Position numbers and translations under genes: made by a program | Part shown: positions 57,213 through 63,711 of the stretch, piece by piece | Position numbering within the stretch: the stretch's first letter is position 1 | Layout of the letters: each line of letters opens with the position of its first letter | Assembly: GCA_964486045.1 (NCBI GenBank) | Contig: CAZALK010000001.1 | Coordinates: 96,001 to 160,000, forward strand | Direction: 5' to 3' | Origin: an uncultured archaeon | GTDB taxonomy: Archaea > Asgardarchaeota > Lokiarchaeia > Sigyniarchaeales > SOKP01 | DNA: 64,000 nt | Notes under the pieces: model-generated | What the model was told of the DNA's origin: nothing | What the model saw: only the letters and a program-made list of their open reading frames with translations | Databases searched by the model: none

Positions 57213-57737
57213 TTAAGAGGACTGGGATGACTCTGTTCTTTCAAAAATTGTAGATATTTTTGTATTATATATTTTATAAGTGAATCCTTCAGGAATTTCC
57301 TCATCCAAAATTTTGATGAGATTTTTGATTCTATCGGCTTCAGGTTTGAATGATTCATCATATTTATGAAAGTAAATTGAGACTTCAAAAGAATAACCTA
57401 CTGATTTAACTACAGTTAGTATTTCTCTTAAAAAAACTACAGAAATAAAGTATACGTTTTCATCTTGAATATCAATAACATAAATAATCTCATCCGTTTG
57501 AGCAATATATTTTTTCATGTTTAGTTTATATTTCTTTCGATACTGTTCTTGCCCGCCAAAATCCCATAATAAAAATTCTGATGTCTCATCTTCAAACTTA
57601 GAGATCTCTATTTCTGTTGTAGGGATTAAAGAAGTAAAGGATGATAAGTTTGTAATCTTCTGCATTGAAAGAGATATAGATGTCTTCCCACTATTTGCTA
57701 AACCTAATATTAAGACCTTCTTCTTTTTTTTCTCCAT
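57213..57737 (-). CDS. Small GTPase, Rag/Gtr- or Arf-like
   Basis: GLANSGKTS, PT, WDFGGQ and HKYD (HKxD-type G4). Confidence 0.85.
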   Translation of the reverse strand: MEKKKKKVLILGLANSGKTSISLSMQKITNLSSFTSLIPTTEIEISKFEDETSEFLLWDFGGQEQYRKKYKLNMKKYIAQTDEIIYVIDIQDENVYFISVVFLREILTVVKSVGYSFEVSIYFHKYDESFKPEADRIKNLIKILDEEIPEGFTYKIYNTKISTIFERTESSQSS

Positions 57738-58082: not shown

Positions 58083-59012
58083 TTAACTCTTTATTACTTC
58101 AATCAATTTAGGAAAAATTCTTGTATAGTGCGCTGCCAAACAATGAACTCCCGCTATCAACCCTTTTGACTTTAATTCGGTTATAAAAGGTTTAAAAAGG
58201 TCATAATTCAATTGGTCATAGGTTTTTTTTTGTTCTTTTTTATCAGAAACGCTTGTTTTAACTCGTTTCCATCTCTCGAGAATATCTTTTGGGACATCTA
58301 CTCCAGAACCAAACGTATCAAATTCCTTTGCTATAGAATAACTTTTAATGGGAAAAATTCCTAGAAATAAAGGTATATTGTATTTTTTAAGTTCCCTTAG
58401 AAATTCGATTGCAATATCTATATTGCAGACTACCTGAGTTTGAACAAATTCTGCCCCGGCTTCAACTTTTCTGCTAATTTTCAATATCTCAGCCTCCATA
58501 GGATCTGAATTAGGATTAGCCGAACTTCCTACATGGAGTTTCGGAGGATGTTTAATTTCATGACCATTGATTGAGCCTGTATCCACCATTTCCCGTACAA
58601 GTTTTATTAGTGTAGCAGAGTCTAAATCAAAGACTGGTTTCGTTTCTGGGCAATCACCTAATGCAGTATGATCACCAGTAAGAGAAAGAATATTATGCAG
58701 TCCTAATGCGTGGGCACCCATTATCTGCCCAGCGATACCAATTTTATTGCAATCTCTAGTTGTTAATTGCCACACACATTCTAATCCTGCTTCTCTTTGA
58801 ATTATATGAGCAGCTACCATTGAATTAATTGTAACATTTGCATGAGTACTATCAGTTACATTTGCAGCAACAACATAAGGTGCCATTTCTCTTGCTTCCT
58901 GAATCAAATTTGAAAGATCACACGTTTTTTCTGGTTCAATTCTACCAGTTAATACAAATTCTCCCTTTTTAATCGACTCTCCTAGTTTAGAAAAGACTTT
59001 TTTCTCTGTCAT
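58083..59012 (-). CDS. metF: Methylenetetrahydrofolate reductase
   Basis: NVTD, QLTTRDCN, LSLTGD, VFDLDS and KVEAGAEFVQTQ motifs. Confidence 0.9.
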   Translation of the reverse strand: MTEKKVFSKLGESIKKGEFVLTGRIEPEKTCDLSNLIQEAREMAPYVVAANVTDSTHANVTINSMVAAHIIQREAGLECVWQLTTRDCNKIGIAGQIMGAHALGLHNILSLTGDHTALGDCPETKPVFDLDSATLIKLVREMVDTGSINGHEIKHPPKLHVGSSANPNSDPMEAEILKISRKVEAGAEFVQTQVVCNIDIAIEFLRELKKYNIPLFLGIFPIKSYSIAKEFDTFGSGVDVPKDILERWKRVKTSVSDKKEQKKTYDQLNYDLFKPFITELKSKGLIAGVHCLAAHYTRIFPKLIEVIKS

Positions 59013-59018
59013 CAGCCT

Positions 59019-59684
59019 TTACCTCCAAACTACTTCTCGTTGATGACCTGATTCACTCCAGTTGACAGGATTCCTTAATTTAATAAATAAATCTAATCTT
59101 CCTAAGACTTTCAAACGGTTGAAAATTAATACCCATCCACAATCTATTTCAAAATTCCCAACTTCACATTTACCATGAACCATTCCACCACAAGGCCCAT
59201 TCATCAGTGATTTAGCGCAAGTTGTAATTGGACAAATTCCACCAGTCTCGTTTAGCAAACAATCACCACACCCGTTACAACGTTGGTAAAATCTTCCAAT
59301 TCTCTCCGTCATCCCCATAAATTCAGTATTTGTTGCGATAAACACAGGGATATCTGGATGCATTCTAGAAAGTATTTGAGAAATGCTTGCAACACCTAAT
59401 CCACAACTTAATGTTAATATCGCGTTAATATTTTGCAAATCTTCTTCAATTTTTCGAAAATCCTTCATCATCACTCTATTATCGCATACTTCCTCAGAAA
59501 CCATTGTAACTACTACCTCAAACCCTTCTTGCTCTAGTTTTTTGACAATCTCTTTTGCTCCTTCGGTACCTCCCGTTTGACACATAGCCGCACAATTACC
59601 ACAGGAGACCAACCCAATTTTGTTCATATTCTTTAACACGCCTAAAATCTCTTCAAAAGGCTTTTTTGTTGTTATAATAGTCAT
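59019..59684 (-). CDS. metV: MTHFR small Fe-S/Zn subunit (MetV)
   Basis: CGNCAAMCQTGG, SCGLG, C..CGDC...TGGICP...CAKSLMNGPCGG...CEV...CGW. Confidence 0.9.
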   Translation of the reverse strand: MTIITTKKPFEEILGVLKNMNKIGLVSCGNCAAMCQTGGTEGAKEIVKKLEQEGFEVVVTMVSEEVCDNRVMMKDFRKIEEDLQNINAILTLSCGLGVASISQILSRMHPDIPVFIATNTEFMGMTERIGRFYQRCNGCGDCLLNETGGICPITTCAKSLMNGPCGGMVHGKCEVGNFEIDCGWVLIFNRLKVLGRLDLFIKLRNPVNWSESGHQREVVWR

Positions 59685-60058: not shown

Positions 60059-61729
60059 ATGGGAATTGAGAAATATTTACCAACATTAAAACTAGTTAAA
60101 CCAATAGGTGGTTTTCATGGAGTTTCAGCTATTTTCCCCACATTGAAGGATGTAATAGATTATGAGGAGCATAATATTGTAATAAATCATGGTTACCCAC
60201 GATTTGTAACTCATCCAATAGTTAAGATAATTGAAAATAAATATAAAAAAAAATTTGGGGCAATAGGTGCAATTAGTTGTCACAGCTATGAAGCTGCAAT
60301 TTTCTTAGTTGTCGATTACTGTTTCAGACATGGGAATAAGATATATTTTGATAAGGGGGTACCATTAGAGTTTTATAATATGCTTAATGAAAAATTTCCT
60401 AACCTTGTCAAAAGGACTGAAATGGCAGACGCAAATATATTGTTTATCAAAACTCAAGGAAATAAATTCCAAAATGATGCTAAAGGAAAAATTGTTATTG
60501 GTATTTTAGAAGATATCAATTTAGGAGATGACTTAAAAAACTTAGGATTCAACATAATACTTCATCATGATAAGAAACATGATATTGGGATAATATTAAT
60601 TTTTAGCATAAGATATGCTATGTTAGATATTCTACGAAGGCATTGTGGATTCAATGTGAGTTCTCGAAAATTAATTAAGAAATTTAGATCTTCTAGTGAA
60701 TTAACAAAAGGTTATGATTATAATCTAAGAAAAAGAATAGCAGAATTAGAAAAAACATCCCCAGAATTTTGTTTTTTATATTCATCTGGCATGGTAGCAG
60801 TTTTTAGTTCAATTTTATCTTTAATATCCTCAAAAAAAGGCAAAATTATCGCAATCGGCTCATTGTATGTTGATACTCTTAGAATTTTAGAGAGTTGGCT
60901 TGAAAAGTATGACTTACCTAAACCAGTTTTTATTAGAGATAATTTTGTTGAGAATTTAAAAAACTGTATTGATTTGAATACAGCGGGAGTTATTGTCGAG
61001 ATTCCCTCAAATCCTTTAATTCAATTGGTAGATATCGATGAAATTGTGAGGATTTCTCATTCTAAAGGTGCAAAAGTAATAGTTGATAATACTGTTGCTA
61101 CACCATATAATTTTAATCCTTTCCTTTACGATGTTGATATAGTTGTTCATAGTACAACCAAATTTCTTAGTGGAAAAAACAATCATATTGGTGGAGTAGT
61201 CTTAATTAATGAAGAGGAATTGGAGGAAAAATTCGAAAATTTTAGCAAAATTACAAAATTAAAAATGGATTTCAATGATGTTAAAGTCTTATCTCGAAAT
61301 ATTAGGAGATTTGAAGAACGAATGGAAAAAATAAATAATAATAGTGAAATTGTTGCTAACTTCTTGAATAATCATGAATTAATCAAAAGGGTATATTATC
61401 CATCAATAAAAAATGATCAATATCACCTACTTATGAAAAAGTATCTTAAGGGGGGAAGCGGATTATTAAGTTTTGTTTTAAAGGAATCTACTGAGGAGAA
61501 CGCTAAGAAGTTTTACGATAATTTGCTCCCTCCAATTTTGAAGGGTCCAAGCCTAGGTTCTGAAAAAACTTTATTATGTCCGTATGTCATAATGGCTCAT
61601 TATCATGATTCAAAAGAGGAATTAGAACAACTAGGTTTTGATTTTTATTTGATGAGGATGTCTGTAGGAATTGAACCAGTTGATAAAATAATAAGAAGCC
61701 TTGAAAATGGTCTTAAGAATTTAGAGTGA
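60059..61729 (+). CDS. PLP-dependent Cys/Met metabolism enzyme, Str2-type cystathionine gamma-synthase-like
   Basis: SSGM, EIPSNP, DNT, HSTTKFLSG (PLP Lys), KGPSLG...PYVIMAHY, and N-terminal GYPRF. Confidence 0.82.
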   Translation: MGIEKYLPTLKLVKPIGGFHGVSAIFPTLKDVIDYEEHNIVINHGYPRFVTHPIVKIIENKYKKKFGAIGAISCHSYEAAIFLVVDYCFRHGNKIYFDKGVPLEFYNMLNEKFPNLVKRTEMADANILFIKTQGNKFQNDAKGKIVIGILEDINLGDDLKNLGFNIILHHDKKHDIGIILIFSIRYAMLDILRRHCGFNVSSRKLIKKFRSSSELTKGYDYNLRKRIAELEKTSPEFCFLYSSGMVAVFSSILSLISSKKGKIIAIGSLYVDTLRILESWLEKYDLPKPVFIRDNFVENLKNCIDLNTAGVIVEIPSNPLIQLVDIDEIVRISHSKGAKVIVDNTVATPYNFNPFLYDVDIVVHSTTKFLSGKNNHIGGVVLINEEELEEKFENFSKITKLKMDFNDVKVLSRNIRRFEERMEKINNNSEIVANFLNNHELIKRVYYPSIKNDQYHLLMKKYLKGGSGLLSFVLKESTEENAKKFYDNLLPPILKGPSLGSEKTLLCPYVIMAHYHDSKEELEQLGFDFYLMRMSVGIEPVDKIIRSLENGLKNLE

Positions 61730-61772: not shown

Positions 61773-62471
61773 ATGGTAGATGTAGAAGAAATTGCTTGGT
61801 CCGTTGAAAAGGATCTTCTCGAAAGAGAGATTATTGTAAAACAACCTTATAGAGATTTGGACAAAAATCAAGATTATTACTTAATATCAACTCCAAACGT
61901 CTTTAAAAAGGATCATATCTTTATTATAGCCTCCGGGCATCCTGAAATTGCCGGAGTTTGGTCAAATACTCTATTAAGTGAAGGGAGAATAGAGGAATCA
62001 AGCATGGAATCCTATTTTAAAGCATTTCATAAAGAAAACTGGGGTTTAGTGGCATTGAATCCACATCTAATTGAGGATGACTTAGTTGGGACAAACTATT
62101 TCAATCAATTAGGAAAAATAATAGAAACATCGAAACCTGAGAGTAAATTCGGATTTATAGGTTTTTCTATGGGTGGTAGGATTATTTATGATTTCTTAAA
62201 TAACAATAAGAGTTTAATAAAGAATGTAATTGCTATTGCTCAAGTAGATCCTGTTATTCAAAGTTTTAATTGGGATAAAATTATCATAAACAATCTCGAA
62301 GACAGAACAATTTTATTTGCATCAAGCACAGACAAATATAGATTTGGGGCTATTGCATCAACAATTTTAAAAATCTCAAGTACTCCGGTAGAGGGTAAAC
62401 ATGGAGCACTTCCAAGTAGATGTTTGGAGAGTATTATCGATTTTTTTAAAACTCAAATCAAAAAATTATAG
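61773..62471 (+). CDS. Alpha/beta-hydrolase-fold protein, FAM172A/Arb2-like
   Basis: 'IIASG..IAGVWSNTLL...WGLVALNP', GFSMGG, 'AIAQVD', 'ASS', 'H...SIIDFF'. Confidence 0.72.
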   Translation: MVDVEEIAWSVEKDLLEREIIVKQPYRDLDKNQDYYLISTPNVFKKDHIFIIASGHPEIAGVWSNTLLSEGRIEESSMESYFKAFHKENWGLVALNPHLIEDDLVGTNYFNQLGKIIETSKPESKFGFIGFSMGGRIIYDFLNNNKSLIKNVIAIAQVDPVIQSFNWDKIIINNLEDRTILFASSTDKYRFGAIASTILKISSTPVEGKHGALPSRCLESIIDFFKTQIKKL

Positions 62472-62532: not shown

Positions 62533-63711
62533 CTAACTTTCTTGAGTAGCTCTTGGCCGTTTGTTTATATGTATTTTTTCGAAGATAAAATGGCTCAATA
62601 GATAGCAAAGGATGACTGTTAGAGGAAATACAATGGTGAATTTTATAACAGGTAATATGGGTATAAATGCAAATCCGAGGGATACAAAGACAAGGACGGG
62701 TGGGTGAATTAGGTACATAGGAAATGCGCTAGAAGATAGGTTCTTTAGAATTTTTCCTTGCTTGTTGAATTTTGCATAAAAAATCTTAATTAATACAAAA
62801 ATCATCCCCATAGCTATGACATTTTCTACAACAGCAAATACAAGAGCATGCAAATTAAATCCCCCAAATAAGACACTATAATCTGAAACTATTCCCAGAG
62901 CCATAAAAGCGTATATATAAAATAATACAAACATAACTGCTATTATAATTGACCAGACTTTGACATGATTTCTAGTCATCTTTTCAAACCAATCATATCG
63001 AACAGCAATAACACCAATACTGAACATCATGAGATACGGAAAGAAAAATCCGAATGGGATTCCCAGCGGAAATTTGTCTACAGGAGAGATTAAGCGAATT
63101 AAAAAAGTAGCAAATCCTAAACTAATGGCTAAAAAGAGTAAATAGATATAACTTGGGATTGAAAATTCCTTTTGGATTCGACTTTGCACTGAGTCGATCT
63201 TTGTTATCTGACGCCATAGAGCATAAATAGCAGTAAAAATTAATAAAAGAAAGAGGTACCACATAGGACCAGTTCTTGTAAGAAAACCGATAAATACTTC
63301 CAGTGATTGAAATTGGCTCAAATAAAAATCTATTAAAGATCCTTGTGGTTCTATAATATAAGCCAAAAGAGGATTAATTAGCAAAATATATAAAACGAGA
63401 GGAATACCAAGACGTAGAAGCCGTTCTTTCCAGAATGAGGATGCGCCTTTTTTATCATAACTTTTGGGAGTAAAATACCCACCCATTAGAAAGAATAATC
63501 CCATAAGTGAGGCTTGAAAAAGACCTCCAATTGAGCTTAAAATTGTAAAAAATATAATGCTGAAAAGATCACTTGGTGATGCCTCAATATAATACCACCC
63601 ACCCGACCCACCATAAGTGACCCTCACGTGTTGGAATATCACGAGAATAGTAAATAAGACCTTAATATTATCTAGGAAAAAAAGCTTTGGTTTCTTAGGT
63701 TCTGTATTCAT
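62533..63711 (-). CDS. Acyltransferase-3 (OpgC/MdoC-like) membrane protein
   Basis: 'LDNIK...LVIFQH', 'MGLFFLMGGYF', 'RLLRLGIP', 'GPMWYL', 'MYLIHP'. Confidence 0.9.
   Translation of the reverse strand: MNTEPKKPKLFFLDNIKVLFTILVIFQHVRVTYGGSGGWYYIEASPSDLFSIIFFTILSSIGGLFQASLMGLFFLMGGYFTPKSYDKKGASSFWKERLLRLGIPLVLYILLINPLLAYIIEPQGSLIDFYLSQFQSLEVFIGFLTRTGPMWYLFLLLIFTAIYALWRQITKIDSVQSRIQKEFSIPSYIYLLFLAISLGFATFLIRLISPVDKFPLGIPFGFFFPYLMMFSIGVIAVRYDWFEKMTRNHVKVWSIIIAVMFVLFYIYAFMALGIVSDYSVLFGGFNLHALVFAVVENVIAMGMIFVLIKIFYAKFNKQGKILKNLSSSAFPMYLIHPPVLVFVSLGFAFIPILPVIKFTIVFPLTVILCYLLSHFIFEKIHINKRPRATQES

What the first reader, a model, noticed from the sequence alone, without database searches (positions are those of the whole stretch)
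61773..62471. Apparent archaeal homolog of eukaryotic FAM172A/Arb2
Seen motifs run colinearly with FAM172A as I recall it: IIASG..IAGVWSNTLL (LIHGSG..RAGQWARRLI), SMESYFKAFHKENWGLVALNP (TQIPFIKRA..EGYGVIVLNP), FSMGG (HSYGG), VIAIAQVDPV (VTAVALTDSV), FASS (WVSS) and H...SIIDFF (H...SIFKFF). Established: Arb2 domains occur in fission-yeast Argonaute chaperone Arb2, class II HDACs Clr3/Hda1 and FAM172A (AGO2 nuclear import, chromatin). The archaeal protein keeps a GxSxG nucleophile elbow and a C-terminal His. Inference: a candidate eukaryotic signature protein and possibly a catalytically active ancestor of an RNA-silencing/chromatin cofactor.
Basis: partly seen in the sequence, partly recalled or inferred. 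Interest (0 to 1): 0.75.

Follow-up and report, generated by a model that had tools for sequence, protein, structure and literature searches.

The report
Prokaryotic ARB2 hydrolase in methionine clusters
This archaeal gene is a true relative of the human disease gene FAM172A/ARB2A, but it is rare, shared with some bacteria and usually sits among cysteine and methionine genes, so it most likely acts as a small enzyme in sulfur amino-acid metabolism rather than in RNA silencing.

Summary
The ORF (61773-62471, 232 aa) and its motifs are real, and it is a true ARB2/FAM172A-family member: Pfam Arb2 passes its cut-off, and the best solved-structure matches are the Clr3 and Hda1 ARB2 domains.

The gene is in 7 of 400 Asgard genomes and at least 22 bacterial genomes. 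None of 32 carriers tested has an Argonaute Piwi domain. The Ser-Asp-His triad is kept in FAM172A too, so it does not mark an 'active ancestor'. Trees cannot place the eukaryotic branch, so an Asgard origin is neither shown nor excluded.

The new result is the gene context. In this clade the gene ends a cysK-metX-metW-aminotransferase-metB operon (5 of 5 loci follow metB). In bacteria it sits beside ThiS-type (HcyS) sulfur carriers, Cys/Met enzymes or cysteine desulfurases (14 of 29 loci). In one Planctomycete family, 8 of 8 genomes with the intact gene have HcyS, against 12 of 112 without it.

Best reading: an accessory serine thioesterase of homocysteine/cysteine metabolism, with homocysteine thiolactone as first candidate. 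The substrate is inferred, not shown. The scan had noted only this same stretch.

The parts
61773..62471 (+). Stand-alone ARB2-family alpha/beta hydrolase, 232 aa, 26.4 kDa, pI 5.6
62166..62168 (+). Ser132, nucleophile elbow G-F-S-M-G-G
   Evidence: Ser in 51/52 prokaryotic and 20/24 eukaryotic rows; between strand E125-131 and helix H133-144 of the model
62247..62249 (+). Asp159, probable acid of the triad, just after strand E152-158
   Evidence: Asp 50 / Glu 2 of 52 prokaryotic, Asp 24/24 eukaryotic rows; geometry not measured
62400..62402 (+). His210, probable general base
   Evidence: His 52/52 prokaryotic, 23/24 eukaryotic rows
61935..62006 (+). Conserved loop and short helices after the third strand (G55-P57-E58...W63...M78); ARB2-specific segment, probably the position of the dimer 'arm' of Hda1 (inferred)
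   Evidence: W63 invariant in all 76 rows; E58 in 51/52 prokaryotic rows but not in eukaryotes; arm described in PMC5036196
60059..61729 (+). Cys/Met-metabolism PLP enzyme (cystathionine gamma-synthase-like, 556 aa with about 220-aa N-terminal extension); 43 bp upstream, same strand, probable operon partner
   Evidence: PF01053 E 1.8e-75; NCBIfam below all cut-offs; same adjacency; gap
58083..59012 (-). Methylenetetrahydrofolate reductase (MetF), divergent neighbour; supplies methyl-THF for homocysteine methylation (established knowledge)
   Evidence: PF02219 E 1.2e-32
59019..59684 (-). MTHFR C-terminal-like Fe-S protein (DUF5981), paired with MetF
   Evidence: PF12225 E 7.3e-33

Best explanation
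A cytosolic, cap-less serine hydrolase of the ARB2 family that works as an optional accessory of cysteine/homocysteine/methionine biosynthesis. Shown: ARB2 fold, conserved Ser132/Asp159/His210, repeated placement in Cys/Met and sulfur-carrier clusters, dispensability. Inferred from alpha/beta-hydrolase chemistry: Ser132 attacks an acyl-sulfur (or acyl-oxygen) bond, forms an acyl-enzyme, and His210/Asp159 activate water to release it. Inferred and least certain: the substrate is a small side product of the pathway, first candidate homocysteine thiolactone, which methionyl-tRNA synthetase makes when it edits out homocysteine; hydrolysis returns homocysteine for methylation. Odds by step: ARB2 family 0.97; active hydrolase 0.85; works in Cys/Hcy/Met metabolism 0.65; small-molecule repair thioesterase 0.4; Hcy-thiolactone specifically about 0.2.
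For: Triad conserved across 52 prokaryotic rows. In this clade the gene follows the metB-like gene in 5 of 5 loci, three of them with the full cysK-metX-metW-aminotransferase V-metB run. Three other supported branches link to different sulfur genes: HcyS-type ThiS beside it in PVC bacteria; Cys/Met enzyme or a full ThiF-MetY-ThiS-Rrf2 plus MetX-like and Hom cluster in the Desulfobacterota-like branch; cysteine desulfurase-like gene or the HcyS operon in the SAR324 branch. In all, 14 of 29 bacterial loci. In one Planctomycete family 8/8 intact carriers have HcyS versus 12/112 non-carriers (Fisher p 1.5e-7; 2.5e-4 with only the four newly found genomes; kin are not independent), and the genome with a stop-interrupted copy lacks HcyS. 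Accessory, not core: 2 of 9 Asgard genomes with the metB-like gene have it, and MetX and the JAB peptidase sit in the same clusters. The clusters use different routes that share homocysteine/cysteine as product. Precedent: human BPHL, an alpha/beta serine hydrolase, hydrolyses Hcy-thiolactone, a metabolite made in all organisms studied (PMC11312131).
Against: No result here shows a substrate or any activity. Seven other Asgard loci and about half of the bacterial loci show none of the sulfur genes searched for; some neighbours there were not annotated. None of the 7 Asgard carriers has an HcyS-type carrier. Six bacterial loci pair it with a lone HcyS-type gene, which fits a carrier-directed role better. 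Relatedness inflates the co-occurrence statistics.
Confidence: 0.4

Rival explanations
1. The enzyme acts on the ubiquitin-like sulfur carrier itself: it trims the residues after the C-terminal Gly-Gly, or hydrolyses a carrier thiocarboxylate, thioester or amide, as a serine-type counterpart of the JAB peptidase.
For: A lone HcyS-type gene is the immediate or near neighbour in L042, L043, L047, L052, L057, L061 and G707; most of these carriers have a single residue after Gly-Gly. 18 of 22 bacterial carrier genomes have HcyS. Lokiarchaeal Met/Cys clusters also hold a ThiS/Urm1-like gene, ThiF and TusA, and this genome has them on contig C2.
Against: JAB is present in the same operons, so no replacement is needed. 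The Lokiarchaeal carriers already end in Gly-Gly. No HcyS-type carrier in any Asgard carrier genome or in two SAR324 genomes.
Confidence: 0.18
2. A general small-ester hydrolase unrelated to sulfur metabolism that travels with these clusters by chance or co-regulation.
For: Many loci have unrelated neighbours. A genome whose operon is 85-96% identical to that of G184 lacks the gene. Generic esterases follow closely in the structure search, Z up to 17.1.
Against: Four separate branches each link to different sulfur genes, in different orders and orientations; within-family co-occurrence with HcyS.
Confidence: 0.2
3. An O-acyl transferase or deacylase for homoserine or serine (a MetX-like ping-pong enzyme), supplying or removing the activated precursor of the neighbouring PLP enzymes.
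For: MetX is itself an alpha/beta hydrolase with a similar elbow (established knowledge); the gene lies directly after the enzyme expected to consume O-acyl-homoserine.
Against: A full MetX (PRK00175 471 bits, cut-off 331) and CysE are in the same cluster; the protein matches no NCBIfam model at E 1e-8 and its model has no large cap domain.
Confidence: 0.1
4. One reading: an Asgard forerunner of the eukaryotic cofactor that already works with Argonaute or histones.
For: Real ARB2 homology. The Hda1 ARB2 domain binds histones through a dimer arm (PMC5036196), and a segment at about that position is conserved here.
Against: No Piwi match in 0/7 Asgard and 0/25 bacterial carriers, while 26/400 Asgard genomes have one. 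Most known carriers are bacteria. It lacks the N-terminal extension and the NLS-bearing insertion of vertebrate FAM172A. Neighbours are metabolic.
Confidence: 0.04

Closest known systems
FAM172A / ARB2A (animals and other eukaryotes; Pfam PF22749)
   Same: Same fold (TM 0.84 to predicted FAM172 models), colinear motifs, Ser/Asp/His and the invariant Trp shared.
   Different: About 21% profile identity; no N-terminal extension, no NLS-bearing insertion; elbow G-F-S-M-G-G versus A-H-S-Y-G-G; prokaryote-specific Pro-Glu in the loop; metabolic gene context; no Argonaute found in the genomes.
ARB2 domains of class II HDACs Clr3 (5ikk) and Hda1 (5j8j)
   Same: Top two solved-structure matches, Z 19.2 and 17.6, over residues 1-230.
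   Different: Stand-alone, not fused to a deacetylase; 13-14% identity. Hda1 ARB2 is described as a histone-binding dimer whose arm disrupts the substrate pocket (PMC5036196); dimerisation was not tested here.
Protein-thiocarboxylate methionine pathway (Wolinella HcyS/HcyF/HcyD/MetY/Sir; neighbourhood type 4e in PMC1779556)
   Same: Bacterial homologs lie in or beside clusters with ThiS, ThiF, JAB, sulfite reductase, TusA and a MetY-like enzyme.
   Different: The passages read list no alpha/beta hydrolase in that neighbourhood. The gene is absent from most such genomes in the family tested (12 of 20). The Hcy gene names and mechanism are from my own knowledge plus PMC8191291; the primary paper was not available.
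Human BPHL (valacyclovirase, Hcy-thiolactonase)
   Same: Alpha/beta serine hydrolase with a Ser-Asp-His triad acting on Hcy-thiolactone (PMC11312131): a functional precedent.
   Different: Different family; BPHL was not among the listed sequence or structure hits, and its triad spacing differs (S122-D227-H255 versus S132-D159-H210). An analogy only.
Homoserine O-acetyltransferase MetX
   Same: Same superfamily and pathway; encoded in the same operon.
   Different: A separate 375-aa gene in the cluster; this protein does not match MetX models.

Membership tests
ARB2 / FAM172A family (PF22749) | Pfam Arb2 score above the curated cut-off | tested here: met
   33.1 bits vs 26.8
ARB2 / FAM172A family (PF22749) | Fold closer to ARB2 domains than to generic alpha/beta hydrolases | tested here: met
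   Clr3 Z 19.2 against best generic 17.1; Hda1 17.6 is tied with generic. Atlas TM 0.83-0.84 to eukaryotic ARB2 vs 0.73 generic
ARB2 / FAM172A family (PF22749) | Reciprocal profile match with eukaryotic FAM172A over most of the domain | tested here: met
   hhalign 98.4%, 193 columns; eukaryotic profile's only clear hit in the genome
ARB2 / FAM172A family (PF22749) | Arm-mediated homodimer and histone binding (shown for Hda1) | not tested
FAM172A/ARB2A as Argonaute or chromatin cofactor | An Argonaute partner encoded in the same genome | tested here: not met
   No Piwi match in 7 Asgard and 25 bacterial carrier genomes; many are incomplete MAGs, though G015 and G016 are single contigs and G000 is 99% complete
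FAM172A/ARB2A as Argonaute or chromatin cofactor | Bipartite NLS insertion splitting the domain (vertebrate FAM172A) | tested here: not met
   Insertion absent in all prokaryotic rows shown, and also in several invertebrate rows
Eukaryotic signature protein (Asgard + eukaryotes) | Absent or nearly absent from bacteria | tested here: not met
   23 loci in 22 bacterial genomes of four groups; Atlas cluster 72% Bacteria. Still rare: a lower bound of 22 among 185,579 species genomes, against 7/400 Asgard
Eukaryotic signature protein (Asgard + eukaryotes) | Widespread in Asgard archaea | tested here: not met
   7 of 400 genomes, in two families only
Eukaryotic signature protein (Asgard + eukaryotes) | Eukaryotic sequences branch with or within Asgard sequences | tested here: inconclusive
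   AU test rejects none of 8 hypotheses, p 0.22-0.60. The preference for Heimdall branches (weight 0.53-0.60) vanishes without one long branch (0.10-0.12)
Active serine alpha/beta hydrolase | Nucleophile elbow Ser plus conserved acid and His | tested here: met
   S132, D159, H210
Active serine alpha/beta hydrolase | Triad geometry and measured activity | not testable with these tools
   No coordinates returned; no assay
MetX homoserine O-acyltransferase | Match to MetX models | tested here: not met
   No NCBIfam hit at E 1e-8 for this protein, while the separate neighbour passes PRK00175

The most novel reading that the evidence does not exclude
The eukaryotic ARB2/FAM172A domain descends from an Asgard serine hydrolase of homocysteine or ubiquitin-like sulfur-carrier chemistry, and human FAM172A/ARB2A, which keeps the whole triad, still has a related activity (removing Hcy-thiolactone or a thioester on a ubiquitin-like protein) behind its nuclear roles.
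Probability: 0.1. Interest if true: 0.85.

Novelty: new variant of a known kind. Interest (0 to 1): 0.55.

Why it matters
FAM172A/ARB2A is mutated in some CHARGE-syndrome patients and is studied as an AGO2 import and chromatin factor (PMC10205598). In the papers I could search, no substrate for it appears, yet its Ser-Asp-His set is conserved. A 26-kDa stand-alone prokaryotic homolog inside Cys/Met operons gives a concrete substrate class to test and an easy protein to assay. It also adds an unassigned enzyme to the protein-thiocarboxylate and trans-sulfuration clusters, and is a cautionary case for signature-protein calls: real homology, patchy distribution, bacterial members, unresolved origin. 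No paper on prokaryotic ARB2 proteins was found, although Pfam already labels these sequences automatically; the library lacks most subscription papers.

Tried and rejected
Complex prediction of a Planctomycete homolog with its adjacent HcyS-type carrier returned 'no answer' (score 0.01, mark 0.32); not used as evidence either way. Sequence search of the PDB found nothing significant. Foldseek E-values did not separate ARB2 from generic esterases; TM- and Z-scores did. The careful IQ-TREE runs did not finish, so quick trees with SH-aLRT only are reported. Apparent attraction of eukaryotes to a Heimdall sequence was rejected as long-branch driven. 'It replaces JAB' and 'it is MetX' were rejected because both genes occur in the same clusters. 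The 99 weak Asgard matches cover only the elbow region and were treated as generic hydrolases. The ThiS near L045 is the thiamine ThiS/ThiG/radical-SAM set and was not counted. The promoter/terminator scan was at chance level. Belanger 2018 (PNAS) and the Wolinella primary papers could not be read; my recollection that Belanger reported Ser294-dependent serine-hydrolase probe labelling of Fam172a is unverified. One Pfam call failed on a frame slip, so neighbours of the Heimdall loci were checked only against my own seed sequences. Clr3, Hda1 and fission-yeast Arb2 sequences were not in the trees; 23 of the 24 eukaryotic rows' sources are animals or unnamed, so eukaryotic sampling is narrow.

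Full report
1. Observation. Its GC content (0.318) is like the genome's (0.312). The genome is a Lokiarchaeon (Promethearchaeota) by inference: a 73%-identical homolog is named Promethearchaeota, and a same-family genome carries the locus titled Promethearchaeia.

2. Family. Pfam Arb2 (PF22749) passes its cut-off, 33.1 against 26.8 bits. A single-sequence search of 1.84 billion representatives reaches animal FAM172A at E 3e-4 after 31 closer hits. The family profile matches three eukaryotic sequences at 98.4% over 193 columns, and a eukaryotic profile picks this ORF alone from the genome. The AlphaFold model (pLDDT 89.7) matches Clr3 (Z 19.2, rmsd 3.0, 206 aligned) and Hda1 ARB2 (Z 17.6) first; the best generic hydrolase has 17.1, so only Clr3 stands clear. 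Among predicted structures, a mostly bacterial Arb2 cluster has TM 0.92, eukaryotic ARB2 proteins 0.83-0.84 and generic hydrolases at most 0.73. Membership is secure.

3. Catalytic residues. Ser132 (G-F-S-M-G-G), Asp159 and His210 are kept in 51, 52 (two Glu) and 52 of 52 prokaryotic rows, and in 20, 24 and 23 of 24 eukaryotic rows; 116 of 119 retrieved FAM172A-like proteins have the Ser. The triad therefore does not distinguish the archaeal protein from FAM172A. Activity is inferred from conservation; geometry was not measured. Prokaryotic members lack the N-terminal extension and the NLS-bearing insertion of vertebrate FAM172A.

4. Distribution. Full-length homologs occur in 7 of 400 Asgard genomes: four of this genome's family and three of a family inferred to be Heimdallarchaeaceae from a named relative. 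A pattern-limited scan of 185,579 species genomes gave 25 loci, 23 of them bacterial: Planctomycetota, Kiritimatiellota, Thermodesulfobacteriota and SAR324. The family is rare everywhere; Asgard are richer in it per genome, but it is not confined to them. None of the 7 Asgard or 25 bacterial carriers tested has a Piwi match, while 26 of 400 Asgard genomes do. For the 7 Asgard carriers about 0.5 overlaps would be expected by chance, so this shows no association rather than exclusion.

5. Phylogeny. Eukaryotic sequences form one group on a branch of more than 3.5 changes per site. Asgard sequences do not form one group; the window's clade lies nearer to PVC bacteria than to eukaryotes (quick trees). 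AU tests reject none of eight placements (p 0.22-0.60). Branch-by-branch placement favoured Heimdall branches, but this vanished when one long branch was removed. The window's clade does score highest against the eukaryotic profile (median 46 bits; other groups 6-31), which may reflect slow evolution. An Asgard origin is about even odds by my judgement; it is not shown.

6. Gene context. In the window the gene lies 43 bp after a Cys/Met PLP enzyme, beside a MetF pair. In relatives at 62-70% identity it follows the same gene in all four loci, and in three it ends the run cysK-metX-metW-aminotransferase V-metB-like, with cysE, rrf2, thiF, tusA, nifS/nifU, sat or dsrE nearby in one or more. This genome holds the other operon genes on contig C2. 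The metB-like gene is in 9 of 400 Asgard genomes and only two have this hydrolase, so it is optional. In bacteria, 14 of 29 loci have a sulfur gene close by: an HcyS-type ThiS in ten (three with ThiF and a MetY-like gene, two of these also with JAB), a Cys/Met enzyme in one, a cysteine desulfurase-like gene in three. 18 of 22 bacterial carrier genomes have the HcyS-type carrier, against 3 of 200 other genomes of one carrier's class. Within one Planctomycete family, 8 of 8 intact carriers have it against 12 of 112 non-carriers, and the one genome with a stop-interrupted copy lacks it. Kinship inflates these figures, but four separate branches link to different sulfur genes. Seven other Asgard loci and about half of the bacterial loci show no such neighbours.

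7. Mechanism. The clusters make homocysteine or cysteine by different routes and already contain MetX and JAB, so an accessory role fits best. I put first a repair thioesterase for a small side product, with Hcy-thiolactone as lead candidate; human BPHL is a precedent from another family (PMC11312131). Confidence 0.4. Rivals: action on the ubiquitin-like carrier (0.18), a general esterase that hitch-hikes (0.2), an O-acyl transferase or deacylase (0.1), an Argonaute or histone cofactor (0.04). No result here shows a substrate.

8. Novelty and verdict. Databases already tag these proteins as Arb2. I found no paper on prokaryotic ARB2 proteins or on this context, within a library that lacks most subscription journals. 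It is a new variant of a known kind: a stand-alone prokaryotic ARB2 hydrolase tied to sulfur amino-acid metabolism, useful as a test bed for the orphan triad of FAM172A. Interest 0.55.

Noticed in passing
window 60059-61729 (+): The Cys/Met PLP enzyme has an extra N-terminal part of about 220 aa outside the Pfam match and passes no NCBIfam cut-off; it is found in 9 of 400 Asgard genomes, all in one family. From memory its GYPRF motif resembles fungal Str2-type cystathionine gamma-synthases (untested).
   Followed up: partly
G000 contig C2 36567-60657 and 81207-83373: A cluster with a ThiS/Urm1-like gene ending Gly-Gly, cysK, rrf2, apparent sulfate-assimilation and tetrapyrrole genes, metX-metW-aminotransferase V; thiF-tusA-thiI-like lie further on. 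The rest of the operon, split from the window pair.
   Followed up: partly
L125 (G207) versus L118 (G184): Operons 85-96% identical in protein sequence, but G207 lacks the ARB2 gene at the matching position: a clean recent gain or loss.
   Followed up: partly
L049 / G414:C200:6058-6735: ARB2 homolog interrupted by one TAG; this genome also has no HcyS-type carrier.
   Followed up: yes
L105:3995-4750 (similar genes in L106, L109): A permuted papain-like amidase (Peptidase_C92, YaeF/YiiX) sits between JAB and sulfite reductase in some HcyS operons; another unassigned hydrolase in this pathway.
   Followed up: no
G409, G410, G417: Several bacterial carriers have two HcyS-type genes: one in the full operon and a lone copy beside the ARB2 gene; most lone copies have a single residue after Gly-Gly.
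   Followed up: partly
L050:896-3778: A 960-aa fusion of JAB, sulfite reductase and TusA domains in a Desulfobacterales HcyS operon.
   Followed up: no
L044:5001-5873: A phosphoinositide phospholipase C-like gene (PF16670) directly upstream of the ARB2 homolog in a Lokiarchaeon of the same genus.
   Followed up: no
window 57213-57737 (-): Small Arf/Rag-like GTPase, ordinary for Asgard genomes.
   Followed up: no
window 62533-63711 (-): Membrane acyltransferase-3 (MdoC-like) gene convergent with the ARB2 gene; not seen beside the homologs examined.
   Followed up: partly
Atlas searches: C2orf69 is the next family by features (0.84, a lead only); eukaryotic Arb2-kinase (oomycete) and Arb2-syntaxin-18 fusion clusters exist.
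   Followed up: no
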